Source of the DNA: Minisyncoccota bacterium
GTDB taxonomy: Bacteria; Patescibacteriota; Minisyncoccia; Phycocordibacterales; UBA918
Length of the DNA: 52,944 nt
Direction of reading: 5' to 3'
Assembly: GCA_937975855.1 (NCBI GenBank)
Contig: CALJTT010000005.1
Span: 1-52,944, forward strand
Shown: positions 5,928 to 34,574 of the stretch, piece by piece
How the letters are laid out: each line of letters begins with the position of its first letter
Numbering within the stretch: position 1 is the first letter of the stretch
The notes under the pieces: model-generated
What the model was told of the DNA's origin: nothing
What the model saw: the letters and a program-made list of their open reading frames with translations, nothing else
Database searches by the model: none
Position numbers and translations under genes: made by a program

Positions 5928-6082
5928 ACAAAAAGCGCTCCCAGTCGGGAGCGCTTTTTGTAATAGTGATGTTTCGTCTTACACTAAAGCCCCCGACTGA
6001 GTCAGTTCTGGAACCACTGGGACGAGAGTGTGTGTGTAAGCCATCGTGAATTCAGTATTTCACGATTTAAAATTCTTGGCAA
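5928..6082 (-). promoter_or_regulatory. Leader-peptide transcription attenuator (Thr/Val/Pro-rich leader)
   Basis: TTGCCA-17-AATACT promoter; terminator 5928-5961; antiterminator segment CAGTCGGGGGCTTT (5986-5999) is complementary to the terminator 5' arm and loop. Confidence 0.7.
5979..6044 (-). CDS. Leader peptide MAYTHTLVPVVPELTQSGALV (21 aa)
   Basis: ATG close to the predicted TSS; ORF overlaps the antiterminator segment. Confidence 0.6.
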   Translation of the reverse strand: MAYTHTLVPVVPELTQSGALV

Positions 6083-6086
6083 GTAT

Positions 6087-6452
6087 TTAAGCAGCTAGGC
6101 CGTGATAGATAGAAATTGCAACTGTGTCTGAGTTTGCGCTGAATGTGCCTCGGTCGCTGGCGTAGAAAAATGTTCCTTCAATGTCGATTCGGTGTAGGTA
6201 TGCCTCGTCAGTGTCGATCAGTTCTGATTGTCGCAAGAGGCTGCCCTGTGCCGTGACTGCAGTAACTCGCCCGAAAGGGTCGGTTTCAAAATGCATCGGC
6301 ACTACGACGGTTTCCCGCGGGAAGTGCCCGTTGTCTTTGATTGAACTGGCTGTGAGGATATCAGCATGGAAAAATGCTGGCAGTACGAGCGATAGTACAA
6401 GCAGGCCGCCGCACCAAAGGAGAATATTGAATCGTTGTTGTTTCGTAAACAT
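6087..6452 (-). CDS. Small membrane-anchored hypothetical protein
   Basis: N-terminal TM helix, 121 aa. Confidence 0.7.
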   Translation of the reverse strand: MFTKQQRFNILLWCGGLLVLSLVLPAFFHADILTASSIKDNGHFPRETVVVPMHFETDPFGRVTAVTAQGSLLRQSELIDTDEAYLHRIDIEGTFFYASDRGTFSANSDTVAISIYHGLAA

Positions 6453-6550
6453 GACAGTCTTATATCATAAATAAAGTATTTGTCAATAGATAAACAGACG
6501 ACCCTGTTAAGGGCCGTCTGTTTATCTAGATTGTTTATTCTAGCCTTGTA

Positions 6551-7615
6551 CTATAGTCGCCAAATCTTTCGAGCTGCCTTCCAAACAAATCGAGCTGCGA
6601 ATATAAGTACCAGTAGATATAGTCCGTATTGCACAACGTATAGCAGGAAGATTCCAAAGAAGGCAGTCAGACCAATTAGTGTCTGAGTAAATTTGTCACT
6701 GAGGTCTTCCCAGGCTCGCTCCCACATGCGGCTGTGTTCGCCCACTTGTACAGGGTTAGAGCGACTGAAGTTTGCGTAAAATTCTACGACGTTCAGACGT
6801 TCGCTCAGGTCAGCTGACTGCTGGGCGTAGTTGCTCAGTTGGCTGGTGAGGCTGATCTTACGCTGGGTTAAATAGTCGATTTGCTGAAGCTTTTCTCGGA
6901 TTGCTTCGCTGAGTGTTGCGGCGTCTTTGTTGCTGCGGGCGAACGTTACGATTTCGTCGTAGGCAACTTCTGCCTCTGCAAGTGTTCGTTCGACACTGGC
7001 AAGTTGTTGCCGGACAATGTTACTTTGGTTGTCTAGATTTTCTTTATGTCGGGTGACACTCTCGGTGTTGCGACTGATTGTGACATCGCTTGACGATTCA
7101 AATTGTGACAGCACACCAGCGACTCGATCTTCCTCTACAAAAAATCGAGCGTTACAGTTGTTTACGTTAGTGTTGATGTACTTGAAGTGGATTGCCTCTT
7201 CCGCCTTGAGGTTCGTCAGAGTCTCGCAATGATTTTCAAACTTGCGACTATTGGCATGCAGGTTATATGAGGTTGTTTCGTATCGCTCGAGACCAGACGT
7301 GTATCCGTCTGGTTGAGGCACAGGCACCATTACGGGTTCAGGGCGATAGCTGCTGAGCATGTCGTCAGCGTAGTTTCCATCCATGGCTCGACCCATACTT
7401 GGCGCCATCGCAACACTTTCTTCCATGGCTATCTCGTCCATGTACACACCACCGTAGCCCGGTTCGAAGAAGGCTTGTTTGTTGTAGCCAGTGTTGTTAA
7501 AACCGACTCCTCCAAACAAAGTCTGGAACACGACCAACGAAACAACGAGGGTAATAAACGCCCCTAACCCAAACAGGCCAAAGCGTACAAATTTGTTTTC
7601 TAAGAGCGGCATCAT
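6551..7615 (-). CDS. DUF4349-like membrane protein with coiled coil
   Basis: N-terminal TM, Met/Pro-rich linker, long coiled coil, C-terminal TM. Confidence 0.65.
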   Translation of the reverse strand: MMPLLENKFVRFGLFGLGAFITLVVSLVVFQTLFGGVGFNNTGYNKQAFFEPGYGGVYMDEIAMEESVAMAPSMGRAMDGNYADDMLSSYRPEPVMVPVPQPDGYTSGLERYETTSYNLHANSRKFENHCETLTNLKAEEAIHFKYINTNVNNCNARFFVEEDRVAGVLSQFESSSDVTISRNTESVTRHKENLDNQSNIVRQQLASVERTLAEAEVAYDEIVTFARSNKDAATLSEAIREKLQQIDYLTQRKISLTSQLSNYAQQSADLSERLNVVEFYANFSRSNPVQVGEHSRMWERAWEDLSDKFTQTLIGLTAFFGIFLLYVVQYGLYLLVLIFAARFVWKAARKIWRL

Positions 7616-7715
7616 AGGTAATGAACTTTAACTATTATGAATATATTGTAGCAAATAAAACTAAACCGGCAGAGCTATGAAGCCCGCCGGTTTAGTTTTA
7701 GTCGTAGTATTGTGT

Positions 7716-8564
7716 TTAATCAGCGTACAACCCAAGTGTCGCCAACACTCCGGCCCAGTTTTTTGTCCACTCGATCAGATCGCGAGTTTCTAGTTCTACT
7801 GTTACAGCAGGGATGCCTATACTCGCCAGCCATCCCTCGGCGTCACCAGTGATTGGGTATGCGGTCCAGAGGCCGGCTGCTTCATACCCGGCGGCTGTGG
7901 CGTAGGTGTTCATGATAGTCTCTGTGCCTGGCAAGACGCCTGCTCCACATTCGCTGGTGAACACCGCTCCACCCTTGCTGTGCCAGAACACGACACCTTC
8001 AGGAGTGTTTGCAAGAACGTAGTCACGTAGTGCTGCTGCCTCTGGTTCGGAAAATGCTGATGCGCCGGCACTGACAGTCTGCCCGAGCCAGGTGCTGGTC
8101 GCCGCCCATCGACAATCAAAGTTACGGTTCAGGTCGATGTCGTTGCCGTTAAACCGACGAGCTTGTTTACTGGCCTGTGCTGGTTGTGCGTAGCCGTCGG
8201 GGTTGAGATTTGGGATGATGTGGACGGTGACGTTTTCCGGAATGACCATCTGGTTGATCTGAAATTCTTCGATCACGCCCTCAGCCAGTCTGACAGTGTT
8301 TTCCTCATAGCCGCCGTGGATACCACCAACGAACAGCACGTCATTTTCTCCGTTGCCAAATGTGTGGGCAGTGATGTCACGTCCTGCAACTGATTTTCCA
8401 ATAACTGAAACAGTCGAAGTTGGAACTACTACAACCGGTGTTTCTATTACCATAGCTGGTTCGGGCTGTGGTACCGGGGCTGCCGGTACTGGCCAGTACG
8501 CCCAAACGGCGAGGAGCACTACTCCTAATGTCAGTAGTGCTCCAAAAATAGTCGCCTTATTCAT
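7716..8564 (-). CDS. M14 zinc carboxypeptidase (MpaA-like murein peptide amidase), membrane anchored
   Basis: GGIHGGYE, NPDG, DLNRNF, FWHS and TVELE motifs intact. Confidence 0.85.
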   Translation of the reverse strand: MNKATIFGALLTLGVVLLAVWAYWPVPAAPVPQPEPAMVIETPVVVVPTSTVSVIGKSVAGRDITAHTFGNGENDVLFVGGIHGGYEENTVRLAEGVIEEFQINQMVIPENVTVHIIPNLNPDGYAQPAQASKQARRFNGNDIDLNRNFDCRWAATSTWLGQTVSAGASAFSEPEAAALRDYVLANTPEGVVFWHSKGGAVFTSECGAGVLPGTETIMNTYATAAGYEAAGLWTAYPITGDAEGWLASIGIPAVTVELETRDLIEWTKNWAGVLATLGLYAD

Positions 8565-8570
8565 ACTGGT

Positions 8571-9467: not shown

Positions 9468-9577
9468 ATGATAGGTATTGTACGTAAGACGCAGCGATTT
9501 GGCCACCTTGTCACACTTTTTGCTTGCTAGGATGGCTTTTGCCAGTATAGTAATAATATAATTTTAGATATTCACTT

Positions 9578-9880
9578 ATGGCTATTTTACTTAAAAACTT
9601 GCTCGCCTCTCTATTACTAGCTTTCGTTATGGGAATGTTTGTGACAACAGTTCATGCAAATGAAGGAGGAGCTGGGGAATTTAATTTTCAGCAACACTTA
9701 GATAGCGAGGAGATCGAGAATACAAATACAAGTGTTGAAGAAGAAAATCATGATCACAGTTCGCACGACCATGGTTCAGACGAAGAGATAGCGAAACTCA
9801 AAGCACAGGTGCGAGTCCTGATGGAAAAATTAATTGAGTTGTTGACAGCTCAGTTGGCAAAGCAGAATGCTGGTCAGTAG
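9578..9880 (+). CDS. Secreted His-rich small protein with C-terminal coiled coil
   Basis: Signal peptide ending VHA; NHDHSSHDHGS tract. Confidence 0.7.
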   Translation: MAILLKNLLASLLLAFVMGMFVTTVHANEGGAGEFNFQQHLDSEEIENTNTSVEEENHDHSSHDHGSDEEIAKLKAQVRVLMEKLIELLTAQLAKQNAGQ

Positions 9881-9934
9881 TTGCGCAGAACAAAAAGAAC
9901 GGCGGCCGATGGCCGCCGTTCTTTTTGTTTGTCT

Positions 9935-12376
9935 CTATACTGATGCCAGTTCTACGTCTGCACTAGTCAGGTTTATCGTGCCTCCCTTTTGGATTGCTCC
10001 GGCGATGATCTTGCTAGCGACTGCTTCTTCGATTACATCTTGGATGACACGTTGCATCGGGCGAGCACCGAATTCTGGGTGGTAGCCTCGCTCGACTAGT
10101 ATCTGCAATAGTTCGTCCGAGACTTGCAGTTCGTAGCCTTGATCTTTAACTCGTTCATATAGTCCCTTCAACATCATGCCGGCGACCTGGAATTGTTCGC
10201 CGCGGTTAAGTGGTTCAAATATAATAGTGCTGTCAAACCGGTTGATAAGCTCGGGTCGGTAGATGCCGTCACGGATTATCTTTTGGATGATCTCGTCGTT
10301 TAGGTGGTCTAGTTCTTTTCGGTTTTGGACTGTTTCGAGGATGAGCTTGCTACCGGCGTTACTGGTTGCAATGATGATGCAGTTACGTGCGTTGATTACT
10401 TGTCCTCGACCGTCGGTGAATTTTCCTTCGTCTAGTACCTGCAGAAAGATGTCGTGTACCGGCTGGGCGGCTTTCTCAAACTCGTCGAGCAGAACCACGC
10501 TGTACGGATGCTCACGCATGAGTGAAGGTAATACCCCAGCGTGTTCGCTGGTTCCAACTAGACGTTCGACCGCGTCGACACCGCTGTACTCCGACATGTC
10601 GAGTCGGCGCAATGTATGTTCCCCACCAAAGAAAACTGTTGCCAACGCTTTAGCCGTCTCGGTCTTCCCTACACCAGTTGGCCCAAGGAACAGGAATGAC
10701 CCAATTGGCTTTTCGCTTGACTGAATCCCGGCCCGCGCCCGGCGCATTGTGCCGGCGATGGCGTTCAGGGCATTTTGCTGGCCAATGACTAGTCGGTGCA
10801 AGTTGTCCTCTAGGTGCATCAGCTGGTCTCGCTCTTCTTCACCGATTGGGCCGGCTGGCATGCCGGTACGTTCGTTGATGACCTCGTAGACTAGATCCTC
10901 GGTGACTACACTTACACCGTTGCCGGTAGCTTTGCTATTAACACCAAGCAAGAGAGAGATCGCCTTGTCAGGCATGACTCCCTCAACGATGTAACGGTCG
11001 GCTGCCTCGGCGACTGCAACTAGTGCCCCGTAGGTAATAAGCGAGTTATTTTTTCGTTCTTCTTGCAGTGCGATTTTCTGTAGGACTCGAACGGTGGCAC
11101 TTCGGTCAGGGGTTTCGATTAATACTTCGGAGAAACGCCGTACAAACCCACCAAGAGTCTCGAGGTGCGAGTGGTACGCGCTGGGAGTATCAGTTGCGAT
11201 AAAGTGAATGTTCTGTAGTCCCAAATACTGGTCGATCAGTTCTGGCACGTACACGCCCAACGCTTCGGCTTCTTTAATAAACGTACTGAGGTTTTCGATC
11301 ACCACAATGATGTGGCCAGCCCTGGTCGCCTCGTCGAACATAGTGAGTAGTGTTAGCTCGAGTGATTGCTTGTCTTTGTGCGCAGCGAACAAGCGATTGG
11401 TGTCTAGTACATATATATGTTCGCCGGTTAGTGAGTCGATTGATTGGCCGCTTTTCATTCGGCGCGCGACCTCCATCACCAGGTCGATTTTTCCAACGCC
11501 GGCTTCACCAACAATTAAGACGTTGCTGGCTTTGCCTTGGGCCAGGATGCCCTCGATCTTCTCCACCTTTTCTGCGGCAAAAGCGCTGTCGCGGGTAAGA
11601 GTAGAAAAAACCGCGCTGGTGCGAATGTCCCGAGAGAACTTCTTTAGTTGATATGCAATACCGTAAGACAGCTCGGTACCGACGCCTTCAGTTTTAGACA
11701 AGTTGTCACGACTCCACCACCGGGAAAATCTTTTATTCTCGTGATAAGTTCCCACTACCCAACGTAGCGACCCCAGGAATATTTCTTCACGAATGCCGTG
11801 CTGTTTTAACATCTCTGCAAAGGCAACGTCGTTTTGCAGGATGTATTTTCCGAGTCCGATCAAACTAAAGACTTCCTCTTCTGGCAGTGCCACCATCGCC
11901 GCGGTGATCTGTTGTCGCGGGTTGGTTAAATAGTTTTGGATTGACTCTAGCGGCACGTTCGATCGCAACAGAACCGTCTGACCAAAAGTCGATGTAGCAA
12001 AAGCGTGCGCGATGTCGTCTTCTTTCTTGAGAATCGTTCGGGCGACTTCGTATGTCACGCCGCTGATCGGACGCTCTTCGATCCCGAGGATAGAAGTTAA
12101 CCCTTTGAAGTAGTAGCTGTTGTGATAACACTTGGCCAAAAACGCGTCGAGCCATAGCGCTAATCCCATCAGTGAAATTCCGGCTGCGACGTTGCGATAT
12201 TCAGTCAGGCCCGGTACGAGTGTCGGTGCAAAAAAGGATACAGCTGTAGCAACAGTGCCAAGCAAGAAAGCAAAAAATCCTAGGTGCCGCAGCCGATCGA
12301 GAGCGCGCCGGCTGACGAGCCTTTCCAGCGCCACTGCTGGCTGATATTGTCTGATGTCGTCTTGCAGGGTTTTCAT
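9935..12376 (-). CDS. ClpA/B-like AAA+ ATPase with N-terminal TM helices
   Basis: D2 motifs GPTGVGKT, RLDMSEY, LLDEFEK, RPELINRFD, GARP; D1 GEAGVGKID is degenerate. Confidence 0.9.
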   Translation of the reverse strand: MKTLQDDIRQYQPAVALERLVSRRALDRLRHLGFFAFLLGTVATAVSFFAPTLVPGLTEYRNVAAGISLMGLALWLDAFLAKCYHNSYYFKGLTSILGIEERPISGVTYEVARTILKKEDDIAHAFATSTFGQTVLLRSNVPLESIQNYLTNPRQQITAAMVALPEEEVFSLIGLGKYILQNDVAFAEMLKQHGIREEIFLGSLRWVVGTYHENKRFSRWWSRDNLSKTEGVGTELSYGIAYQLKKFSRDIRTSAVFSTLTRDSAFAAEKVEKIEGILAQGKASNVLIVGEAGVGKIDLVMEVARRMKSGQSIDSLTGEHIYVLDTNRLFAAHKDKQSLELTLLTMFDEATRAGHIIVVIENLSTFIKEAEALGVYVPELIDQYLGLQNIHFIATDTPSAYHSHLETLGGFVRRFSEVLIETPDRSATVRVLQKIALQEERKNNSLITYGALVAVAEAADRYIVEGVMPDKAISLLLGVNSKATGNGVSVVTEDLVYEVINERTGMPAGPIGEEERDQLMHLEDNLHRLVIGQQNALNAIAGTMRRARAGIQSSEKPIGSFLFLGPTGVGKTETAKALATVFFGGEHTLRRLDMSEYSGVDAVERLVGTSEHAGVLPSLMREHPYSVVLLDEFEKAAQPVHDIFLQVLDEGKFTDGRGQVINARNCIIIATSNAGSKLILETVQNRKELDHLNDEIIQKIIRDGIYRPELINRFDSTIIFEPLNRGEQFQVAGMMLKGLYERVKDQGYELQVSDELLQILVERGYHPEFGARPMQRVIQDVIEEAVASKIIAGAIQKGGTINLTSADVELASV

Positions 12377-12768
12377 ATGGTGATTAAAAACAAACTAAGA
12401 CTGCCTCCGACCAGGCCAATGATAATAACGGGCAGTAATATCCAAGTGATGTAAATGAGCATCCCCACACAGAATGTGACCAACAGCGCGACTAGTCCTA
12501 TTAGTATGAGTACTGTCCGCACAATCGCCCCAATAACTCGTGACAGTATATTGATGACAACAAAGCCAGCCAGGTCTTCAAAATTCCAGGTGTTGCCGCG
12601 ACCCTCAGTCACTCGTTTGAACGGCGCAAACCACGACCGCATCAGTTGTGGAATAGAAAAGAAGTGAACGACAAACCAAAGATAGTTGCGCCACACACCA
12701 CCGATCTCCCGCCAGGCCCGAGTATAGTGCCAAACAAAGTAGTCGTATATGATGAGTGGGAGGAACAT
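12373..12768 (-). CDS. Small membrane protein translationally coupled to the Clp ATPase
   Basis: Hydrophobic and Trp-rich; 4-nt ATGA overlap with the Clp gene. Confidence 0.85.
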   Translation of the reverse strand: MFLPLIIYDYFVWHYTRAWREIGGVWRNYLWFVVHFFSIPQLMRSWFAPFKRVTEGRGNTWNFEDLAGFVVINILSRVIGAIVRTVLILIGLVALLVTFCVGMLIYITWILLPVIIIGLVGGSLSLFLITI

Positions 12769-13500: not shown

Positions 13501-13642
13501 TCTATGCCCCCTTAGATAAAAACAAAACGATCCAACCGCGCCGGATCTTCTATGTTTGTTATAGCGGTTGCATTTTTGTTTGTCAATGAAAAGAAAACCG
13601 GCGCGCCCTTAGGCTACGCCGGTTTTCTTTAACTCTTACAGC

Positions 13643-16647: not shown

Positions 16648-17190
16648 TTATACCTGAGTCTGTAAAAATTCTCGCACTGCCTCGATCGGTTTAATTTTTA
16701 AATACGTCTCGTAGTTGTCTTCTTCGTTTAGTTCGGCGCGAGTAACAGTGTGTCCGTCGGGGATGTATATCACGTCCCAGCCGAACGCTTCTCCGTCGTA
16801 CGGATGTTCTGGGATCGTACCAGCATGTTCACCGCTCCAGTATTTTTCTACGGTACCGTCGTAGTAGCCGTACGTGCATTTCGCTACACAGCCCCGACCC
16901 TTGCCGTCGACCAGGCGACACAGTTCTTCGTACCCCAGCTCTTCCACAAACGATTTTATATAAGTGCCAGGCAGTCTGCCCATGGCTTCAAACTCGAGGG
17001 ATACGTCTTCGACTAATACCGGCTCGCCCACCAGCTTGTAGGCCTGATGAACTTTATGTTGCATAATCTCTTGCTGGTCGAGAGACTGAATTTCCTCCAG
17101 GTCAACTTTCTGATGTTTGATCGGAAGTCCCAAAAGTTTCTCCAAGTAGTCAGCTTTGTTTTGATTGCCGGTTATAAAGGTGACGTTCAT
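16648..17190 (-). CDS. Non-canonical purine NTP pyrophosphatase (ITPase/Ham1)
   Basis: FITGNQNK, VEDVSL, LPGTYIK, FGWD. Confidence 0.92.
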   Translation of the reverse strand: MNVTFITGNQNKADYLEKLLGLPIKHQKVDLEEIQSLDQQEIMQHKVHQAYKLVGEPVLVEDVSLEFEAMGRLPGTYIKSFVEELGYEELCRLVDGKGRGCVAKCTYGYYDGTVEKYWSGEHAGTIPEHPYDGEAFGWDVIYIPDGHTVTRAELNEEDNYETYLKIKPIEAVREFLQTQV

Positions 17191-17718: not shown

Positions 17719-17816
17719 ACTCAATTATATTAAATTTTGTAAGAGATACCACGGTGCGTTACCGCCGGCGCTGTAGTGATCTCAATGTAGCATTAGCTGA
17801 CGATCTTGCCTAGCGC

Positions 17817-17981
17817 TTGCCCTGCCAGTATTCCTTTGCTACTGTGCGGGTATGACATTGTTTCAAGTCATCGCAGCGCAGCATCATATTCCCGCACCAA
17901 CAGGCGGGACTGGTTTGCGTTGATCTTGAAATGAATACTCTCACAAGATGAACGTAACCCCCTCCCGCGTGGAGGGGGTTT
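17817..17981 (+). promoter_or_regulatory. Leader-peptide attenuator (Gln-His-His leader)
   Basis: TTGCCC-17-TACTGT promoter; 1:2 TCCCGC/GCGGGA; 2:3 17904-17928 with 17944-17968; 3:4 AACCCCCTCC/GGAGGGGGTT. Confidence 0.72.
17852..17923 (+). CDS. Leader peptide MTLFQVIAAQHHIPAPTGGTGLR (23 aa)
   Basis: ATG 6 nt after the -10 box (leaderless); overlaps segments 1 and 2. Confidence 0.65.
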   Translation: MTLFQVIAAQHHIPAPTGGTGLR

Positions 17982-18036
17982 GCCGTTGCGCCTATGAAAG
18001 CAACTACAGTTCATTAGAGAAGAAGGAGTGTCAGCG

Positions 18037-18936
18037 ATGACACCAGCAGAACAAGTCGAGCGGTACTTTTGGGGGACGACAGCACAATCGGACCATATTG
18101 GGGCCGAGGTCGAAACGTCGTTTATAACCAGTGGAGGAATTCCGATTTCTCTGGATGTGTCACAGCGCATCATGCGTGACCTGGTTAACAATGGGGGGTG
18201 GCGCGTTGGCGATACAAAGAATGATGGAGAGTTCATCGCAACTGTCGTCAGTCCGTTTGGCGACGTGCTGTCGTATGAGTTGGGTCGACAGAATCTTGAG
18301 TTGGCGACAGTGCCAGTCGATCCGGCTGGTCTGATTGCTCACACTCGCAAGCAGCTGGATGTTGTCTATCGGGTTGCTGCAAAGCACGATGCCTACCCGC
18401 ACTTTGCGCCAATACTCGATACGAACGAAGATTTGTTGGCATTGCCAGACAAGCGCGACGTCACATGGCTGACTCTCGACGGTCGTTCGGCACTTCGACC
18501 GCTGGCTACCATTTCGTCAGTGCAGTTTACGCTGCCGGTTACCGTCGATACAGCAATACCAATTCTTAACCGTTTTGGTGCCCAAGTTGCTGAGTTTCTG
18601 GCGGACTATCCTCAGGAAGATGTGTGGTATCAGTACGTCGCTGAGTCGTCGGCTGGTTACCGGTCGGATCGCTACGGTGGTCCGTCACACTTCGAATCGC
18701 TCGCAGACTATTGCCAACAGCTTGTTCAACACGATGTTGTCGTTGATACAAAGTTGGTGCCGATGGCACAAGTCGACACTCTAGACATTCCCTTGTTCCT
18801 TCGGTCGGTGTGGTGGTATTCCCGTTTGCGGAAACACGGTGACCAACTGTGTGTCGAGGTGAGGCCGTTGCCCCGCCGCGGTGACGACCAACTAGACCAC
18901 CAACTACAGCGCGTTCTAGCAGTTGCGCGCGGATAA
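18037..18936 (+). CDS. Glutamate-cysteine ligase-like carboxylate-amine ligase
   Basis: IGAEVE, SYELGRQNLELAT, SSVQF, VEVRPLP; AAGGAG SD 8 nt before ATG 18037. Confidence 0.75.
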   Translation: MTPAEQVERYFWGTTAQSDHIGAEVETSFITSGGIPISLDVSQRIMRDLVNNGGWRVGDTKNDGEFIATVVSPFGDVLSYELGRQNLELATVPVDPAGLIAHTRKQLDVVYRVAAKHDAYPHFAPILDTNEDLLALPDKRDVTWLTLDGRSALRPLATISSVQFTLPVTVDTAIPILNRFGAQVAEFLADYPQEDVWYQYVAESSAGYRSDRYGGPSHFESLADYCQQLVQHDVVVDTKLVPMAQVDTLDIPLFLRSVWWYSRLRKHGDQLCVEVRPLPRRGDDQLDHQLQRVLAVARG

Positions 18937-19039: not shown

Positions 19040-19528
19040 ATGAACTACATGTTTGGCTACGGCTCTATTATGAACAAGACCAGTTTGGCAAAAACCATCG
19101 CCGACCCGAGTGATGCGATTCCCGCCGAGTTGCAAGGATACCAGCGCAAGTGCAATGCGTTGTGTTTAGAAGTACGTGACGGTCACTCCTACCTATATAT
19201 GAACATCGTCCCGAATGAATCTATGTCTGTGCATGGCATGTTGGTTCCTGTTACCGACGAGGAGTTAACTTTGATGAAAGAGCGAGAGGCTGAATATACA
19301 GCCGTTAATGTGACCTCTCAAATATCGCCTGCTATAGAAGGTGAGATTGTAGCGTTTGTTGCACCCGATGCTCCGCGACCTGATTATAAAATCCCCCGTA
19401 GCTACCTCGACACCTGTACGCGAGATATGGACGAGGTCGAGCGTGAGCAATGGATAGCTGATACCATCATAGAAAACGAGGTCGTCGAAGATCTTGATGA
19501 TCCAATTTACGAAAACGCTGCGTTTTAG
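19040..19528 (+). CDS. Gamma-glutamylcyclotransferase family protein
   Basis: FGYGSIMN N-terminal motif; ERE-x-x-Y. Confidence 0.85.
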   Translation: MNYMFGYGSIMNKTSLAKTIADPSDAIPAELQGYQRKCNALCLEVRDGHSYLYMNIVPNESMSVHGMLVPVTDEELTLMKEREAEYTAVNVTSQISPAIEGEIVAFVAPDAPRPDYKIPRSYLDTCTRDMDEVEREQWIADTIIENEVVEDLDDPIYENAAF

Positions 19529-25608: not shown

Positions 25609-25611
25609 TCT

Positions 25612-28602: not shown

Positions 28603-28627
28603 GGGGATAGTTTGTTATAATGCCAAC

Positions 28628-29113: not shown

Positions 29114-29114
29114 T

Positions 29115-29156
29115 ATGAAAAAACAAGTATTTTATATTCATGGGGGTGAGTCGTAG
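29115..29156 (+). pseudogene. 13-codon remnant MKKQVFYIHGGES of an alpha/beta hydrolase N-terminus
   Basis: Starts 1 nt after the NUDIX stop; strand-HGG oxyanion pattern, then a stop. Confidence 0.5.
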
Positions 29157-29218
29157 ATAGATAGTAGGTAAACGTTTTATTGCAGTGCAATTATAATAGT
29201 CGTGGTACATTAAGTTTT

Positions 29219-30163: not shown

Positions 30164-30218
30164 TCGCGTGAAAGATTTAGCCCTCTCGCCCGTCTTCGAG
30201 TATAATGGTCACTAATAT

Positions 30219-30833
30219 ATGAGTGATCAGGTAGCACATACTGATATGGGTGGGGAATCAAGTGGATACGAAGCTCGATTCTTAGAAGCGTACGACGAAT
30301 ACAACGACGCTCTCTTTCGGCATGCCAAATTGCGAATCAGCAACCACGAGCGTGCGATTGATCTGGTTCACGACACATACACCAAAGTTTGGGCTTATGT
30401 ACGTCAGGGATACGAGATCAAAACCTTTCGACCATTTTTATACAAAGTGTTGAACAACCTCATCATCGATGAGTATCGAAAGAAGAAAAATCAATCGCTC
30501 GACGCCTTGCTCGAACAAGAGGGGATTGACGAGGGCAGTTTTGAGGAGTTGTCGGAGAGTTCTGTTGAAGCATTAGCCGCGACCCTTGATGGTCGCAAGG
30601 CGTTTGACCTGCTTGACGAGTTGCCAGACACGTATCGTGAGGTGATCATTTTGCGCTTTGTCGACGGACTTGGCCCCAAAGAAATGGCCGAGCTGATCGA
30701 AGAGAAGGAGAATGTTATCTCAGTTCGAATCCATCGAGCGCTGAAGATACTTCGGCAAAAGATCGAGGCAGCCGATGAACTGGCTACTGAGAAACGTAAA
30801 GCCGCCGCCCGAAAGAAAAAAGCTACAAAATAA
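30219..30833 (+). CDS. ECF sigma-70 factor
   Basis: Region 2 (DLVHDTY...FLYKV..NLIIDEYRK) and region 4 (LPDTYREVIILRF...RIHRA). Confidence 0.93.
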   Translation: MSDQVAHTDMGGESSGYEARFLEAYDEYNDALFRHAKLRISNHERAIDLVHDTYTKVWAYVRQGYEIKTFRPFLYKVLNNLIIDEYRKKKNQSLDALLEQEGIDEGSFEELSESSVEALAATLDGRKAFDLLDELPDTYREVIILRFVDGLGPKEMAELIEEKENVISVRIHRALKILRQKIEAADELATEKRKAAARKKKATK

Positions 30834-30835
30834 AC

Positions 30836-32362
30836 ATGAAACGATTCAGCGAACAATTTCATAAAAAATCTCAGACTGTAAAGCTCAACAAAGCCGAGCA
30901 GGCTGATTTGCGTTCCCGAGTTGTTTCGTACATGGAGTATCACCCATTGCCGGCAGAGATGAAATTGACTTCAGCAGCCAAAACTAAAAAAGCATCTGCT
31001 CAACCTATAATGCGCGAGCCTTTTGCTATTTATAACGTACCGTTTGCTCAGTTATTTAAATTCGGCAGTATGTTTGCTTTCATCATGGTGATGGTGGTGC
31101 CATTTGTCGCCGAGCGAGCTATTCCTGGCGACACTCTCTACGCCGTCAAGGTTAATTTTAATGAAGAAGTACGCAGCACTTTGGCCTGGAGTCCATATCA
31201 AAAGGTTGAATGGGAAACTGTTCGTTTGAATCGCCGCATCGCCGAGGCGAAGTTGCTGCAAAAAGAAGGCCTTCTTACTGATGTGGTTGAGGCTGAAGTA
31301 GCCGCCGCGGTAAAGTACCACGCTGAAAACGCCAAAGCCGAGATCGAAACCCTGCGCGCTTCAGACGCCGACGAAGCAGCCATTGCTTCTATTGAACTTG
31401 ATGCAAACCTGACACTGCAGGCACAGTCTTTTGACTCTGTTTTAGGTGACGAAGCAGCTGGTTCAACTGGCACCGACCTAATTGCTGATGCTATTGACGC
31501 TTCATTAGTTAAACAACTTTCAAACGCAACTACCAGTTTGCCCGCCTTGCCAAAACTCATTGCTCGTGTCGAACAAAACACCACCCGCGTACGAGAGCTT
31601 GAGAAGACACTTATCGGCCAAGTTGGCTCCGAGGTTATGTCTGACGTGACGCGTCGTATTGTAGACCTAGAGCGAGTAGCGGCTGAAGCATTCAACCTGC
31701 CAGAAGAAGAGGTAAAGAAAGCCCAGACGTTGTTGGTTGACGTTATCAGCCGGGCTCAGACTTTGGTTGTGTACATGACGGAACTAGACGTGCGTGAGAC
31801 TGTCGCGATCAACACAGCCGTGCCAGTAGTCCTCACAACCGATGAGATTAACATCAACCGCACAGAAATAATGAGCCAGATTGATACTTATATTTCTCAG
31901 ATCAACAATAGCGAAGTGGAAGAAGAGGCTTTGTTGGAGAAGTTGGCTGTAGCAGCGCAGCAGATGGAGGATATAAAAGCTGAACTGCAGGACGTTGATG
32001 TCTATGAGACTTACCTAGCACGTAGCGCCGACGCACTAGCTCTTGGCCACGATGCTGTTATCTTGATTGAGCAGTCAGGTGTGTCAGTTTCTAACCAGAT
32101 CCCCGCAGTGGGCGTAGCCAGCAGTACAGAATCTATTGCAACCAGCACAGCCACATCTACAGAGGAGATCGCAGAGCCATCTGAAGAAGAAACGCCCGTT
32201 ATGGAAACCGGTGATATCGAAATAGTCGCAAGTACCACTGATCAAATCATCGAGCCAGTAGTGCCTACCAGCACAGCCCCGACAACTGAAGAGGTTGACG
32301 TCGTAGACGATATTTCGTCTAGTAGCACCCAAACACAGTCAGAACTTGACGAAGAAATTTAG
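30836..32362 (+). CDS. Putative anti-sigma membrane protein (DUF5667-like)
   Basis: Follows the ECF gene; TM then AIPGDTLYAVK...E; Thr/Ser/Glu-rich tail. Confidence 0.7.
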   Translation: MKRFSEQFHKKSQTVKLNKAEQADLRSRVVSYMEYHPLPAEMKLTSAAKTKKASAQPIMREPFAIYNVPFAQLFKFGSMFAFIMVMVVPFVAERAIPGDTLYAVKVNFNEEVRSTLAWSPYQKVEWETVRLNRRIAEAKLLQKEGLLTDVVEAEVAAAVKYHAENAKAEIETLRASDADEAAIASIELDANLTLQAQSFDSVLGDEAAGSTGTDLIADAIDASLVKQLSNATTSLPALPKLIARVEQNTTRVRELEKTLIGQVGSEVMSDVTRRIVDLERVAAEAFNLPEEEVKKAQTLLVDVISRAQTLVVYMTELDVRETVAINTAVPVVLTTDEININRTEIMSQIDTYISQINNSEVEEEALLEKLAVAAQQMEDIKAELQDVDVYETYLARSADALALGHDAVILIEQSGVSVSNQIPAVGVASSTESIATSTATSTEEIAEPSEEETPVMETGDIEIVASTTDQIIEPVVPTSTAPTTEEVDVVDDISSSSTQTQSELDEEI

Positions 32363-32539
32363 AAGAGTATATTGAATTTATGCAGTTTGTGTACCAAAAT
32401 CGATCAGTCAGTAAAAACGTCGCGATCGCTTCGATTCTGCTGCTGATCCTGCTCGTTTAGCAGGTCAGTTTTGGTATAAGAACACAGCACGCTCCTAATC
32501 AAAACCGACCCGCCCAAATGCAGGTCGGTTTTGATTAGG
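32346..32539 (+). promoter_or_regulatory. Leader-peptide attenuator (Ile/Leu/Val-sensing candidate)
   Basis: TTGACG-16-TATATT; 1:2 32443-32453 with 32459-32468; segment 2 (32460-32475) is 14/16 identical to segment 4 (32520-32535); terminator 32494-32539. Confidence 0.85.
32380..32460 (+). CDS. Leader peptide MQFVYQNRSVSKNVAIASILLLILLV (26 aa)
   Basis: Leaderless ATG; the last 8 codons are all Ile/Leu/Val. Confidence 0.8.
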   Translation: MQFVYQNRSVSKNVAIASILLLILLV

Positions 32540-32580
32540 GATAAAAAGTTCTTTGCGTAACAACAAGATGGGAGGAAAAG

Positions 32581-32865
32581 ATGATCCAAATATTTCAGTG
32601 GGTGAAACGGCTCTGGTTTAGCCCTGATCCTGGTGGACGAATCACCTTCGAAACAGCTTTTGCTGGATGGACAGGAGAAGCACTCGAGTGGTCGCGCGAA
32701 CGTGCCGAAGCTGGGTTTGACGGTTACGGAGATCCACTACCAACCAGCCTGATCGAATCTGCAAGGGTTCTGTCAACACAATGGTCCTACGGACCGCCGC
32801 CGCCAATCTGCCCACGTCTGCTGGCAGAAACACATGGGGCAGGTTGCCTCGCAACAACATCCTGA
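32581..32865 (+). CDS. Hypothetical protein (94 aa)
   Basis: GGAGG SD; first ORF after the attenuator. Confidence 0.55.
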   Translation: MIQIFQWVKRLWFSPDPGGRITFETAFAGWTGEALEWSRERAEAGFDGYGDPLPTSLIESARVLSTQWSYGPPPPICPRLLAETHGAGCLATTS

Positions 32866-32876
32866 GGAGGAACAGC

Positions 32877-33104
32877 ATGAGACGGAGAAGTTTTCTCTTA
32901 TCAACAGCAGCATTTGTGGCCGCTGCCGTGACACCAGTCGCGGCAGCAGAGTCACTTCCCGAACTAGTCCAAGCTTTTCTTCGTACACACGGCGGAGAAG
33001 TCGAAATGAAACTCTCGGTAATGTTCGGTGGATGGGTGACTTTCGAGAATGCAAGTGCTGATCAGGTTTACCAAGCGATCGCTTCAGTTCAGCTGGACTA
33101 CTAA
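32877..33104 (+). CDS. Small exported protein with twin-arginine-like signal
   Basis: GAGGAGG SD; MRRRSFLLSTAAFVAAAVTPVAAA. Confidence 0.65.
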   Translation: MRRRSFLLSTAAFVAAAVTPVAAAESLPELVQAFLRTHGGEVEMKLSVMFGGWVTFENASADQVYQAIASVQLDY

Positions 33105-33107
33105 ACC

Positions 33108-33383
33108 ATGGACGGAACGGCACCAGGCAAAGGAATTCATCCAGGGAAAGTTGCAGATCGCGAGGAAGTCCAGATAGCTCTTAAAAGAGTTGCTCTAGAC
33201 GATCCAGCAATCGTGTCCGATCTGTGCAACTTACGATTCACCGTGCACTGGTTAAGGGGATACATCAAGGTCCGCACCAAGGATCGTGGTCCTGACAACG
33301 TGGTGACTCATTACGAAGCGATGAGGCACGTCATGGCGAAAACGACTTTGCGAGTGTCCAAACGGGACGAAATGACCCTTTGA
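33108..33383 (+). CDS. Hypothetical protein (91 aa)
   Basis: Starts 3 nt after the previous stop; terminator at ~33400-33440 follows. Confidence 0.5.
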   Translation: MDGTAPGKGIHPGKVADREEVQIALKRVALDDPAIVSDLCNLRFTVHWLRGYIKVRTKDRGPDNVVTHYEAMRHVMAKTTLRVSKRDEMTL

Positions 33384-33449
33384 CCTCTTTTTGTGTACAA
33401 CGAAACCCGCGCCGGGAAACTGGCGCGGGTTTGTTCGTTTTCGTTCTTT

Positions 33450-34358
33450 TTAAGAAGGGAAGCTTAGCCAGTCCTTGTAGTCCTCTTCCTGGCCACACAC
33501 TATATTGAAGAAAGTTTGTTTGATTTCATTCGCAGCTGTCAGATCGTACTCAGCCAGAGTCTTGCCTTTTTGATCAATTTTATCAATGGGCGATATTTCA
33601 GCTGCTGTACCAGTAAAGAATGCACTATCAAAATCAGCCACTTCATCTAGCGTGATGTCTCGCTCTACTGTTGTGTAACCCATGTTACTTGTGAAGGTAA
33701 TGACTGAATCGCGAGTGATCCCAGCTAGAATTTTGCCAAGTTTTGGTGTGTGTAGTTCCTTTCCTTTGATAAAGAATATGTTTTCGCCTGGACCTTCTGC
33801 GATATTGTCATTATGGTCAAGTAGCAGGGCCTCCAGATAACCGTTCCTTTTTGCTTGGACAGTAGCCAGAATAGAGTTTACATAGTGACCTGAAATCTTT
33901 GCGTCGCATATCGTGCTTTTTTCAGATATGCGTCGGTAGTCGGATACTTCCACTGATACAGAGTCAGCTAGATACTGGCCCCAGGCCCACGCAGCTATAA
34001 ACACGTGTGTACTGTTTTTGGTTGGGTTGATGCCCATTGAGCTGTCGTCAAAGTACACTATTGGTCGAATGTATGCTTCGGATAGGTTGTTCTCAGTGAC
34101 TGCCTGATGACACGCTTCCATTAATTCAGACTTTGAGTAGGGAATTTCAAGGAATATTTTTTCAGCCGAGTAGAAAAGACGATCGACGTGTTCTTCCAGT
34201 CTGAATATGTGAGTTTTGTTGTCAGTTGTTTCGTAAGCCCGAATTCCTTCGAACACACCAGACCCATAATGGAGCGTATGAGTAAGCGGTGACAAATTCG
34301 TTTCGCTAAATGGAACCAAAGTGCCGTTTAGCCAAACTTTATGATTTTTTTCTAGCAT
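33450..34358 (-). CDS. ilvE: Branched-chain amino acid aminotransferase
   Basis: LHYGSGVFEGIRAY, AKISGHY, EGPGENIF, GITR, TGTAAE. Confidence 0.96.
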   Translation of the reverse strand: MLEKNHKVWLNGTLVPFSETNLSPLTHTLHYGSGVFEGIRAYETTDNKTHIFRLEEHVDRLFYSAEKIFLEIPYSKSELMEACHQAVTENNLSEAYIRPIVYFDDSSMGINPTKNSTHVFIAAWAWGQYLADSVSVEVSDYRRISEKSTICDAKISGHYVNSILATVQAKRNGYLEALLLDHNDNIAEGPGENIFFIKGKELHTPKLGKILAGITRDSVITFTSNMGYTTVERDITLDEVADFDSAFFTGTAAEISPIDKIDQKGKTLAEYDLTAANEIKQTFFNIVCGQEEDYKDWLSFPS

Positions 34359-34432
34359 AAGAAGTAAAGTGTATCAAAAAATGATCGGGCATGCATTTCT
34401 AAGTCACCCTCCTTCCTTTTTTTTGAGTGCTG

Positions 34433-34574
34433 TGATATATTGAAATTAATGAAAATTTTACAAACAGCCTCATATTTCTTTTGGTTTACCAACCGGGAAA
34501 CTCGGGCTGTTTTGACGTAATGTGAACACATTCTCAAAAACCGCGGGTTTCCTACAAGGAACCCGCGGTTTTTG
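34433..34574 (+). promoter_or_regulatory. Leader-peptide attenuator (aromatic amino acid-sensing candidate)
   Basis: TGaTATATT extended -10; 1:2 AAACAGCC/GGCTGTTT; 2:3 GGAAACTCG/CGGGTTTCC; terminator 34535-34574 with T-run. Confidence 0.85.
34449..34520 (+). CDS. Leader peptide MKILQTASYFFWFTNRETRAVLT (23 aa)
   Basis: Leaderless ATG; five consecutive aromatic codons YFFWF. Confidence 0.8.
   Translation: MKILQTASYFFWFTNRETRAVLT

What the first reader, a model, noticed from the sequence alone, without database searches (positions are those of the whole stretch)
5928..34574. A panel of four amino-acid-coded leader-peptide attenuators controlling non-biosynthetic genes
Seen: four loci (5928-6082 -, 17817-17981 +, 32346-32539 +, 34433-34574 +) share one design. 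Each has a promoter, an ATG at or near the TSS, a 21-26 aa peptide, and mutually exclusive 1:2, 2:3 and 3:4 pairings ending in a terminator. The candidate control codons differ: T/V/P, QHH, ILLLILLV and YFFWF. Established: this is the trp/his/ilv/phe ribosome-stalling attenuator logic, normally placed before amino-acid biosynthesis operons. Here the downstream genes are orphans and two amide-bond ligases, in a lineage thought to be largely auxotrophic. Inference: the cell reads tRNA charging of separate amino-acid classes, perhaps as a proxy for host supply, to switch on accessory genes.
Basis: partly seen in the sequence, partly recalled or inferred. Interest (0 to 1): 0.9.

Follow-up and report, generated by a model that had tools for sequence, protein, structure and literature searches.

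The report
Leaderless leader-peptide attenuators in a CPR genus
Two of the four sites belong to conserved families of tiny translated leader genes that most likely switch downstream genes on when aromatic or aliphatic amino acids run short, in a small-genome bacterium that cannot make those amino acids itself.

Summary
All four loci exist as described. Each has a short ATG ORF of 21-26 codons a few bases after a -10 element, and a segment that can pair with the 5' arm of a downstream GC hairpin. Loci 3 and 4 are well supported. Each belongs to a genus-wide family (models R2 and R1) with a conserved leaderless small ORF and a covarying intrinsic terminator. The antiterminator pairing is also conserved: 90% and 77% of cells paired, against 23-57% when partners are slid. 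No promoter lies between terminator and cargo gene. R1 peptides carry an aromatic run (YFFWF type). R2 peptides carry either an aromatic or an aliphatic run. The same leader design precedes DAHP synthase in 3 of 3 genus genomes that have it, although chorismate synthase was not found in 5 of 5 genomes searched. Cargo genes in the window are a glutathione-synthetase-like ATP-grasp ligase (locus 4), a GCS2-like ligase (locus 2) and orphans. Loci 1 and 2 are unconserved look-alikes without a codon run, and locus 2 lacks a U-tract. The organism is a Patescibacteria (CPR) MAG. Verdict: a new variant of leader-peptide attenuation. The "four amino-acid classes" reading is only half supported. There are no expression data.

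The parts
34433..34441 (+). Locus 4 promoter: extended -10 (TGnTATATT). The ATG follows after 7 nt, so the mRNA is predicted to be leaderless.
   Evidence: Read. A -10-like element ends 5-8 nt before the ATG in 17 of the 24 R1 members that have a TAnnnT (7 of 31 have none).
34449..34520 (+). Locus 4 leader ORF MKILQTASYFFWFTNRETRAVLT (R1 family). The aromatic run is at 34473-34487.
   Evidence: ATG at model position 1 in 32 of 33 members. Frame 0 is open for >=20 codons in 32 of 33, against 17 and 11 in the other frames.
34493..34508 (+). Locus 4 small hairpin (region 1:2, CCGGG-AAA-CUCGG) and region 2, which pairs with 34540-34552 as the antiterminator.
34537..34577 (+). Locus 4 intrinsic terminator (hairpin 34537-34572, -24 kcal/mol, then a U-tract).
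   Evidence: In the family, 13 of 13 stem pairs show changes on both sides and 97% of cells are paired.
34705..35790 (+). Locus 4 cargo: 361-aa ligase with an ATP-grasp fold, like glutathione synthetase and glutathionylspermidine synthetase (YgiC/YjfC).
   Evidence: 82 remote relatives. No Pfam family in 25 of 25 members. AF2 model pLDDT 90.4. Foldseek top hits 7uk8, 5oes, 2ioa, 2hgs with E 2e-9 to 4e-7 and TM 0.5-0.56.
32346..32373 (+). Locus 3 promoter TTGACG-16-TATATT, overlapping the stop codon of the DUF5667 gene.
   Evidence: Promoter score >=10 of 12 in 24 of 26 R2 members.
32380..32460 (+). Locus 3 leader ORF MQFVYQNRSVSKNVAIASILLLILLV (R2 family). The aliphatic run is at 32434-32457.
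32448..32474 (+). Locus 3 small hairpin (32448-32464) and region 2 (32460-32474). Region 2 mimics the terminator 3' arm.
   Evidence: Family antiterminator 89.6% paired against 23-50% slid.
32494..32539 (+). Locus 3 terminator (core hairpin 32501-32532).
32581..32865 (+). Locus 3 cargo: 94-aa orphan.
   Evidence: No match in 60 relatives. No Pfam or NCBIfam family.
30219..32362 (+). ECF sigma factor (30219-30833) and DUF5667 protein (30836-32362). These are the conserved anchor upstream of the leader array.
5925..6082 (-). Locus 1: promoter 6082-6054, ORF 6044-5979, region 2 at 5999-5989, terminator 5958-5931 plus U-tract. It is an attenuator look-alike without a codon run.
   Evidence: rank 2 of 519; partial R2 match, E 0.002.
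17817..17981 (+). Locus 2: weak promoter 17817-17845, ORF 17852-17923, hairpin 17890-17909, GC hairpin 17956-17980 without a U-tract.
18037..18936 (+). Locus 2 cargo: 299-aa protein resembling GCS2 (glutamate-cysteine ligase family 2). A GGACT-like gene (19040-19528) follows it.
   Evidence: ESM Atlas nearest clusters carry GCS2, scores 0.98, 0.95 and 0.94 (a lead, not an alignment). GGACT Pfam match.

Best explanation
Loci 3 and 4 are ribosome-mediated transcription attenuators on leaderless transcripts. They belong to two related families, here called R2 and R1, that are spread through one genus of Patescibacteria (CPR). A sigma-70-type promoter places an AUG at or next to the transcript's 5' end. 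A 21-40-codon ORF carries a run of hydrophobic codons: Phe/Trp/Tyr in R1 and in about half of R2, and Leu/Ile/Val in the rest, including window locus 3. Directly after the run lies a small hairpin. Its 3' half plus flank (region 2) is complementary to the 5' arm of an intrinsic terminator. Inferred mechanism: if the ribosome runs through to the stop codon, it covers region 2, the terminator forms and transcription stops. If the ribosome stalls in the run because the matching charged tRNAs are scarce, region 2 pairs with the terminator's 5' arm and RNA polymerase reads on. Read-through passes a structured UTR with no promoter of its own and enters the cargo gene. Cargo is variable: ATP-grasp and GCS2-like ligases, DAHP synthase, a glutamine amidotransferase and many small orphans. 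The modules sit in tandem downstream of an ECF sigma / DUF5667 gene pair. Loci 1 and 2 have the same layout but no codon run and no detectable conservation. They are at best general translation-speed sensors or decayed paralogues. Shown here: conservation, frame, covariation, gene context. Inferred: translation, stalling, amino-acid response.
For: R1 (locus 4):
- A genus DNA search first found the leader in 6 other species although the cargo gene is not shared.
- Model R1 then gave 33 members in 32 genomes.
- ATG is at model position 1 in 32 of 33. Frame 0 is open for >=20 codons in 32 of 33, against 17 and 11 in the other frames.
- 28 of 32 peptides have >=4 aromatic residues in their best 10-residue window.
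- Terminator: 97% of cells paired and 13 of 13 pairs with compensatory change.
- Antiterminator: 77.1% paired against 37-57% when slid, 9 of 12 pairs changed on both sides, and 0 of 500 shuffles reach the observed score. This includes loop-to-arm pairs such as 71:144 (AU 12, GU 7, CG 6).

R2 (locus 3):
- It is syntenic after the DUF5667 gene.
- 30 of 30 fetched loci have a leaderless ORF.
- Promoter score is >=10 of 12 in 24 of 26.
- Antiterminator: 89.6% paired against 23-50% slid, 6 of 11 pairs changed on both sides, 1 of 500 shuffles.
- Region 2 is kept at nucleotide level even where the stop codon precedes it (window, L169, L170).

Both families:
- No promoter lies between terminator and cargo. 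Best scores are at or below shuffled, and 0 of 31 and 1 of 26 reach 10 of 12.
- Cargo link: aroFGH-type DAHP synthase (TIGR00034, 454 bits) occurs in 3 of 128 genus genomes. In 3 of 3 it is preceded by an aromatic leaderless ORF plus terminator.
- The GCS2-like ligase cluster has aromatic leaders in 9 of 9 cases, the ATP-grasp cluster in 5 of 6, and the 361-aa family in 2 of 2.
- R2-type and R1-type matches lie in tandem on one strand, 0.4-4.4 kb apart, in 9 genomes (coordinates).
Against: - There are no expression data. No RNA run holds the stretch.
- At equilibrium the full leaders always keep the terminator, whatever 30-nt stretch is masked (loci 1, 3, 4).
- In transcripts cut before the 3' arm, the antiterminator forms at loci 1, 2 and 4 even without a ribosome and is lost only with a ribosome at the stop codon. 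At locus 3 it forms for only 1 of 8 stall positions. So the protective 1:2 step is weak in silico.
- The outer 1:2 helix of R1 is not supported (59% paired, like the shuffles).
- The R2 small hairpin shows no covariation (103 of 500 shuffles reach it).
- R2 peptides look like single-pass membrane peptides, with a polar N-terminus, about 15 hydrophobic residues and a recurrent GSVGV end. Their run is not one amino-acid class across species.
- Most cargo genes have no known link to aromatic or aliphatic amino acids.
- The covariation counts come from related sequences and overstate independence.
- Leader-cargo associations may reflect common descent.
- Loci 1 and 2: no relatives were found.
Confidence: 0.7

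Rival explanations
1. The small ORFs are independent genes for functional small hydrophobic or membrane peptides, each with its own promoter and terminator. The downstream genes are merely neighbours in a variable region.
For: R2 peptides have a polar N-terminus, a hydrophobic stretch of about 15 residues with mixed F/L/I/V/M/W composition, and a recurrent GSVGV end. The strong promoter and strong terminator bracket only the small ORF. The cargo differs between species.
Against: - Region 2 is conserved as nucleotides even when it is untranslated or read in another frame (window, L169, L170, L213/L219).
- Region 2 covaries with the terminator arm.
- R1 peptides have only 5-6 hydrophobic residues followed by polar ones.
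- The UTR after the terminator is conserved and structured (z < -2 in 22 of 26 R2 and 20 of 31 R1) and holds no promoter.
- Leader type goes with cargo type.
- DAHP synthase is preceded by such a leader in 3 of 3 cases.
- A dual role, as both peptide and leader, is not excluded.
Confidence: 0.12
2. The leaders sense general translation stress or a small molecule through nascent-chain-dependent arrest, like the erm, cat or tnaC leaders, rather than amino-acid supply. The hydrophobic or aromatic nascent peptide would be an arrest sequence.
For: - In silico, any delay before the stop codon favours the antiterminator at loci 1, 2 and 4.
- Loci 1 and 2 have no amino-acid run.
- The R2 run composition varies.
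- Most cargo is not amino-acid metabolism.
Against: - The aromatic run is the most conserved peptide feature of R1, while the residues after it vary and the RNA pairing there is kept.
- R2 cores range from 0 to 7 aromatic residues of 10, with peaks at 2 and 5-6.
- The design stands before DAHP synthase, the classic target of aromatic attenuation, in 3 of 3 cases.
Confidence: 0.12
3. Loci 1 and 2, and possibly all four, are non-coding. They would be small RNAs, protein- or ligand-controlled attenuators, or ordinary 3'-end terminators of the upstream genes, with chance ORFs.
For: - At loci 1 and 3 a same-strand gene ends about 130 nt upstream of the terminator.
- At locus 2 a sister strain has 5 base changes in the ORF, all 4 changed codons are non-synonymous, and the stems stay compatible (my mapping onto the fold).
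- Locus 2 has a weak promoter and no U-tract.
- No relatives of loci 1 and 2 were found.
Against: - For loci 3 and 4, the ATG, reading frame and codon-sized indels are conserved.
- 115 of 183 intergenic terminators that have an upstream same-strand gene lie within 40 nt of its stop, so 130 nt is atypical.
- Loci 2 and 4 lie between divergent genes, where no 3'-end terminator is needed.
- No Rfam family reaches its gathering score.
Confidence: 0.06

Closest known systems
Classical leader-peptide transcription attenuators of aromatic amino-acid genes: E. coli trpL, pheL-pheA and pheST, and Corynebacterium glutamicum aroR-aroF
   Same: Both have a short leader ORF with Phe/Tyr/Trp codons, alternative antiterminator and terminator hairpins, and read-through when the ribosome stalls. 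In C. glutamicum the AroR leader (Phe-Tyr-Phe) controls the DAHP synthase operon (passage read in PMC11802643). Here 3 of 3 DAHP synthase genes carry an aromatic leader.
   Different: - The transcripts here are predicted to be leaderless: there is no Shine-Dalgarno and the AUG lies 6-8 nt after the -10.
- The lineage lacks chorismate synthase (0 of 5 genomes).
- Most cargo is ligases and orphans rather than biosynthetic operons.
- The modules form tandem arrays after an ECF sigma / DUF5667 pair.
- The protective 1:2 element is only a 4-5 bp hairpin.
- No Rfam leader family reaches its gathering score (Phe_leader scores 25.6 bits against 55, driven by the terminator).
Polycysteine leaderless short ORFs of mycobacteria (Canestrari et al., bioRxiv 10.1101/834739; abstract and outline read)
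   Same: Both are leaderless short ORFs acting as amino-acid-responsive cis sensors. Several loci share one design and form a 'ribulon'.
   Different: [quoted passage not shown] Here the run is aromatic or aliphatic and the switch is an intrinsic terminator. The phylum also differs.
Small hydrophobic peptide genes, such as type I toxins or small membrane proteins (recalled class, not tested by any search)
   Same: R2 peptides are 21-40 aa with a hydrophobic stretch. The RNAs are strongly structured, and the terminators are flanked by A- and T-tracts.
   Different: No antisense partner was looked for. The R1 peptides are not membrane-like. RNA-level conservation of region 2, the linkage to cargo, and the promoter-less UTR all point to cis regulation.

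Membership tests
Ribosome-mediated leader-peptide transcription attenuator (trp/his/leu/phe type) | A short translated ORF lies in the leader of the regulated transcript. | tested here: inconclusive
   The sequence signature of coding is met for R1: ATG in 32 of 33, and frame 0 open in 32 of 33 against 17 and 11. The promoter-ATG geometry is met for R2. Translation itself is not shown, and no RNA run was listed.
Ribosome-mediated leader-peptide transcription attenuator (trp/his/leu/phe type) | The ORF contains a run of codons for the regulatory amino acid(s). | tested here: met
   Locus 4 / R1: 28 of 32 peptides have >=4 aromatic residues in 10. Locus 3: ILLLILLV. Across species the R2 run is aromatic (23 of 55 with >=4) or aliphatic (25 of 55 with <=2 aromatic). 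This is not met at loci 1 and 2, which have no run.
Ribosome-mediated leader-peptide transcription attenuator (trp/his/leu/phe type) | An intrinsic terminator lies between the leader ORF and the regulated gene. | tested here: met
   Met at loci 1, 3 and 4. The R1 stem covaries in 13 of 13 pairs. Not met at locus 2, which has a GC hairpin but no U-tract.
Ribosome-mediated leader-peptide transcription attenuator (trp/his/leu/phe type) | An antiterminator (2:3) is mutually exclusive with the terminator. | tested here: met
   R1: 77.1% paired against 37-57% slid, 0 of 500 shuffles. R2: 89.6% against 23-50%, 1 of 500. In the window's own genome the loci rank 2, 9 and 25 of 519.
Ribosome-mediated leader-peptide transcription attenuator (trp/his/leu/phe type) | A protector pairing (1:2) blocks the antiterminator when the ribosome does not stall. 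| tested here: inconclusive
   The R1 small hairpin is 76.8% paired, with 3 of 5 pairs changed on both sides. The R1 outer helix is not supported. The R2 small hairpin is 79% paired but shows no covariation. In the folds the antiterminator beats 1:2.
Ribosome-mediated leader-peptide transcription attenuator (trp/his/leu/phe type) | The regulated genes serve supply of the sensed amino acid. | tested here: inconclusive
   DAHP synthase is preceded by such a leader in 3 of 3 cases. Otherwise the cargo is ligases, a glutamine amidotransferase and orphans. The rest of the shikimate pathway was not found.
Ribosome-mediated leader-peptide transcription attenuator (trp/his/leu/phe type) | Read-through rises on starvation for the amino acid. 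| not testable with these tools
   This needs reporter assays, Term-seq or metatranscriptomes.
Rfam leader families (Phe_leader RF01859, Trp_leader, Leu_leader and the like) | A match at or above the family's gathering score. | tested here: not met
   The whole window at gathering threshold gives only 4 tRNAs. Permissive scans of the four loci give nothing near gathering. The best is Phe_leader at 25.6 bits against 55, at the locus 1 terminator.
Mycobacterial leaderless polycysteine sORF attenuators | A leaderless sORF with a Cys run that controls RBS access of the next gene. | tested here: not met
   The leaderless geometry is shared. However, the run is not Cys and the switch here is a terminator. 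The comparison rests on the abstract only.

The most novel reading that the evidence does not exclude
A CPR genus with no aromatic amino-acid pathway runs a 'ribulon' of leaderless leader-peptide attenuators. They would read Phe/Trp/Tyr-tRNA and Leu/Ile/Val-tRNA charging as a gauge of what the host supplies. The attenuators are wired in tandem cassettes behind an ECF sigma / anti-sigma-like pair. On starvation they would switch on a fast-evolving set of glutathione-synthetase-like and GCS2-like ligases and small orphan proteins, amounting to a starvation-triggered host-interaction or scavenging programme.
Probability: 0.3. Interest if true: 0.85.

Novelty: new variant of a known kind. Interest (0 to 1): 0.72.

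Why it matters
Gene regulation in Patescibacteria (CPR) is almost unknown. My full-text searches found no paper that combines 'leader peptide', 'attenuation' and 'Patescibacteria'. A wider search on CPR terms listed none on attenuation among its 12 listed rows.

If these modules work as inferred, they give three things:
- A sequence-readable sensor of amino-acid supply in an obligate auxotroph.
- A set of co-regulated cargo genes (ATP-grasp and GCS2-like ligases, small orphans) that can now be suspected of roles in nutrient acquisition from the host.
- A compact leaderless attenuator design (promoter, AUG at +1, run, 5-bp hairpin, terminator) that can be tested directly in reporter systems.

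They also show that attenuator leaders can outlive the biosynthetic pathway they are classically tied to.

Tried and rejected
**Searches that found nothing**
- Relatives of locus 3 by plain DNA search in the genus gave only terminator-like fragments. The family was then found through synteny.
- DNA searches for loci 2 and 1 gave no leader homologues. The locus 1 hits were generic terminators matching on both strands.
- Cargo-protein searches: the 94-aa protein matched 0 of 60 relatives. The 361-aa protein matched 1 of 60 and only itself in the word-index search. The 299-aa protein had 1 weak match in 127.
- Metagenome scans with the locus 1 and locus 2 cargo proteins found no relatives.
- No RNA holder was listed for the stretch, so expression could not be examined.

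**Strain and breadth checks**
- The contigs laid informed only locus 2. The sister-strain contig over loci 3-4 has 7 differences in 4.4 kb. The table of differences was cut, with 1214 rows not shown.
- Outside the genus, R1 matched 0 of 150 other genomes of the order at E <= 1e-5.
- R2 matched 7 of 150. By inspection one is convincing (L266, MKSNWFSFFFFAYNRVAGNFASI) and one doubtful (L264). Four are terminators at gene ends, and one partial match (L269) was not inspected.

**Pairings and scans that failed or were weak**
- The outer 1:2 helix of R1 was rejected.
- Covariation of the R2 small hairpin was not shown.
- Equilibrium folding with ribosome masks never removes the terminator at loci 1, 3 and 4.
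- My genome-wide scan for further modules used crude gene calls (ORFs >= 90 aa) and missed locus 3. Among 61 leader-position terminators and the 16 best antiterminator scores, I saw no further module by eye.

**Rows dropped before counts**
- 12 of the 45 R1 matches were removed by an E-value cut before A3. They were 10 partial matches and 2 weak full-length matches, all on the opposite strand.
- A6 still holds one reverse-strand partial row.
- Of 30 R1 loci, 3 (L088, L089, L091) were judged non-members. Of 41 weaker R1 hits, 35 were judged non-members.
- Of 39 weaker R2 hits, 14 were judged non-members by eye.
- For L201 I used the shorter ATG.

**Tools and files**
- Supplementary files of papers were not consulted.

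Full report
**Setting**

The window is contig C5 of a 660,831-base, 30-contig genome that is 66% complete. Its genus holds 128 species genomes of 0.5-1.7 Mb. Public records that encode relatives of a window protein are titled Parcubacteria, Paceibacteria, Minisyncoccia, Saccharibacteria and the like, so this is the Patescibacteria/CPR radiation. Runs that hold the DNA are marine metagenomes, and none is on record as RNA.

**The observation**

All four loci are present. Each has an ATG ORF of 21, 23, 26 or 23 codons that starts 6-9 nt after a -10-like hexamer.

- The consensus promoter scan lists locus 1 (TTGCCA-17-AATACT with TG) and locus 3 (TTGACG-16-TATATT).
- Locus 4 has only an extended -10, and locus 2 a weak promoter (my reading of the sequence).
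- All four leaders fold much better than shuffles (z -5.2 to -7.3).
- A hairpin-plus-T-tract scan of the whole genome recovers the terminators of loci 1, 3 and 4 but not locus 2, whose GC hairpin is followed by UUUGCCGUU.
- Complementarity between the 100 nt upstream and the terminator's 5' arm ranks locus 1 second, locus 4 ninth and locus 3 twenty-fifth of 519 terminators.
- No Rfam family reaches its gathering score at any locus.

**Locus 4 belongs to a conserved family (R1)**

The 361-aa gene downstream has only one weak relative among 60 relatives' genomes. Even so, a genus DNA search hit the leader itself in six other species. The alignment showed a small ORF kept in frame, with an aromatic run of the type YFFWF, YYFWWF, YFWFWF or YFFFWF.

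A covariance model found full-length matches across the genus.
- Of 30 loci fetched, 27 are members.
- Six more came from 41 weaker hits.
- This gives 33 members in 32 genomes (alignment A3).

Evidence for coding:
- ATG stands at model position 1 in 32 of 33.
- The frame is open for >=20 codons in 32 of 33, against 17 and 11 in the other two frames.
- Length differences inside the run are in whole codons.

The residues after the run vary (TNRETR, TKREAR, TSGEAR, TTGNPG), while the small hairpin encoded there keeps pairing.

Pairing evidence:
- The terminator stem covaries in 13 of 13 pairs.
- The antiterminator joins the loop and 3' half of the small hairpin to the terminator's 5' arm. It is 77.1% paired against 37-57% when partners are slid. 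Nine of 12 pairs change on both sides, and 0 of 500 shuffles reach the observed score.

**Locus 3 belongs to a second, related family (R2)**

Plain DNA search failed. In relatives, however, the gene homologous to 30836-32362 (DUF5667, preceded by an ECF sigma factor) is followed by the same module: TTGACA-N17-TATAnT, then 6-9 nt, ATG, a 24-38-codon ORF and a terminator.

- Model R2 matched 83 of 128 genomes at E <= 1e-3, partial terminator matches included.
- All 30 fetched loci have the leaderless ORF.
- 24 of 26 have a promoter score of >=10 of 12.
- 25 more members came from 39 weaker hits.

The peptides start polar (M-x-x-A/T-x-T-T, like R1). They then carry about 15 hydrophobic residues and often end in GSVGV.

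The nucleotides behind that end (GCGGGTCGGTTGG) copy the terminator's 3' arm. They are kept even where the stop codon comes before them, as in the window, L169 and L170. This antiterminator is 89.6% paired against 23-50% slid, with 6 of 11 pairs changed on both sides. The small hairpin before it is compatible at 79% paired but shows no covariation.

**What the run is**

In R1, 28 of 32 peptides have >=4 aromatic residues in their best 10-residue window.

In R2 the count ranges from 0 to 7, with peaks at 2 and at 5-6. Of 55 peptides, 25 have <=2 aromatic residues and are rich in L, I and V, and 23 have >=4. Examples are WFFFFMF, FFGFIIFWFF and VWFMFFFSFY on one side, and LLALLLILAL, LGLILIAILL and the window's ILLLILLV on the other.

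Leader type goes with cargo. The leader is aromatic for:
- 9 of 9 members of a 310-374-aa cluster that starts with a GxExE-like motif;
- 5 of 6 members of an ATP-grasp cluster;
- 2 of 2 members of the 361-aa family (the window and G026).

These units may be inherited together, so this shows linkage of leader and cargo. It is not independent evidence of matching.

**The strongest functional pointer**

One R2 leader (VWFMFFFSFYAF) precedes an aroFGH-type DAHP synthase (Pfam E 5e-83; TIGR00034 at 454 bits). The enzyme occurs in only 3 of 128 genus genomes. In the other two it is also preceded by a leaderless aromatic ORF plus terminator, MNLKSPARNLFWFYFF... and MISNHITRTFFWFYFF....

This is the arrangement known for C. 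glutamicum aroR-aroF (passage in PMC11802643). Yet chorismate synthase was found in 0 of 5 genomes searched, four of them >=94% complete, while the control rang in 14 of 14 genomes. The single PF00275 match per genome may be MurA (recalled, not tested).

**Cis linkage**

Between terminator and cargo start codon lie mostly 73-130 nt in R1 and 40-240 nt in R2.
- These UTRs are strongly structured: z < -2 in 20 of 31 R1 and 22 of 26 R2 members, although not in the window's two copies.
- They hold no promoter-like site beyond shuffled expectation (0 of 31 and 1 of 26 reach 10 of 12).
- R2-type and R1-type modules lie in tandem on one strand in 9 genomes, including the window (coordinates).
- Some genomes carry three or more modules in a row (for example G104 and G088).

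**Cargo in the window**

- Locus 4: the 361-aa protein has 82 remote relatives and no Pfam family. Its confident model (pLDDT 90.4) matches YgiC/YjfC, glutathionylspermidine synthetase and eukaryote-type glutathione synthetase (E 2e-9 to 4e-7, TM 0.5-0.56). A beta-aspartyl peptidase gene follows it.
- Locus 2: the 299-aa protein is nearest to GCS2 clusters by language-model features (0.98, a lead only). A GGACT-like gene and an ATP-grasp-like ORF follow it.
- Locus 3: a 94-aa orphan.
- Locus 1: a 135-aa orphan.

**Loci 1 and 2**

Neither has relatives in the genus or in the metagenome collection.

Locus 1 has the best antiterminator score after one other site in the genome. It also has a partial R2 match (E 0.002 in a 12 kb search) and an N-terminus (MAYTHT) like R2 leaders, but no run.

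Locus 2 carries an R2-like region 2 (GGCGGGACTGGTTTG, my comparison). In a sister strain, 5 base changes alter 4 codons, all non-synonymously, while QHH and the stems stay. It has a weak promoter and no U-tract. I treat both as diverged paralogues or general translation-speed sensors, with low confidence.

**Mechanism in silico**

With the full leader, the terminator is always the minimum-energy fold, whatever ribosome mask is applied. This is expected for a kinetic switch.

In transcripts cut before the 3' arm:
- At loci 1, 2 and 4 the antiterminator forms unless a ribosome sits at the stop codon.
- At locus 3 a long-range pairing of the ORF's 5' part competes, and the antiterminator wins for only 1 of 8 stall positions.

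The safest reading is this: a ribosome that reaches the end of the ORF enforces termination, and a ribosome held in the run permits read-through. The role of the 1:2 hairpin is kinetic and unproven.

**Comparison and novelty**

Leader-peptide attenuation is textbook knowledge. Leaderless amino-acid-sensing short ORFs are known from mycobacteria, where they are polycysteine and act on translation (abstract of 10.1101/834739).

What is new here:
- the phylum;
- the leaderless terminator-based design;
- two paralogous families with aromatic and aliphatic variants;
- tandem cassette arrays behind an ECF sigma / DUF5667 pair;
- persistence in an auxotroph, with ligases and orphans as cargo.

No paper combining leader peptide, attenuation and Patescibacteria was found. 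Outside the genus, R1 was found in 0 of 150 genomes of the order and R2 convincingly in 1 of 150.

**Verdict**

This is a new variant of a known kind. Confidence is 0.7 that loci 3 and 4 are ribosome-mediated attenuators. Everything about expression and amino-acid response is inference.

Noticed in passing
window 30219-38098; relatives L189-L218 and L062-L091: The leader modules form tandem cassettes downstream of an ECF sigma factor and a DUF5667 protein. They end near an MscS channel or a ValRS-like gene. An R2-type match lies 0.4-4.4 kb upstream of an R1-type match on the same strand in 9 genomes.
   Followed up: partly
L192, L191, L195, L193, L189, L196 (after the terminators); L064 1640-1700: A long, near-perfect hairpin with an ...ATTGAAG / CTTCAAT... 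apex follows the terminator in many relatives. The UTRs fold with z < -2 in 22 of 26 R2 and 20 of 31 R1 members. The window's own two copies lack it. Its function is unknown; it could be a second control layer or a processing site.
   Followed up: partly
L259 (G105), L260 (G148), L261 (G078): An aroFGH-type DAHP synthase is present in only 3 of 128 genus genomes. Chorismate synthase was not found in those three. It is an orphan first enzyme of a missing pathway.
   Followed up: partly
L089 (G133:C3) 1501-1623: A weak R1 match whose ORF reads MLLLKLRLLILEDLLRRSSCL. It lies directly upstream of a serine-hydroxymethyltransferase-like gene (my reading of its N-terminus) and may be another kind of leader.
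   Followed up: no
window 13537-13632 (+): A full-length R2-like match (E 9.5e-6 in a 12 kb search) on the strand opposite to both flanking genes. It may be a remnant of a leader module or only a bidirectional terminator.
   Followed up: no
G000:C1 about 12220-12440 (+), outside the window: A TTGACA-N17-TATATT promoter is followed by a long palindromic hairpin without an ATG at +1. It has the top antiterminator-type score in the genome (z -4.6) and may be a small RNA.
   Followed up: no
window 17781-18194: A sister strain (run X2) differs densely here, with 17 changes in the locus 2 leader and many in the first 150 nt of the cargo gene. The only difference listed in the upstream gene is at 17064. 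The table was cut, so relative rates cannot be judged.
   Followed up: partly
G000:C19 about 38243-38369 (+), outside the window: A 41-codon, very basic ORF (MTRIIALSPKKNTSKRPYKSPKRLEAKREMLAKKASKRGKK) lies directly after a TGTATACT -10 element and before a terminator. It suggests that leaderless small genes are a wider habit of this genome.
   Followed up: no
L069 / L119 (G135:C10 1014-1145 and 487-620): Two R1-type leaders lie in tandem about 0.5 kb apart: one is YFWWF and the other is Trp-only (VWWW). L090 (G105) also has a Trp-rich variant, WQWWW.
   Followed up: no
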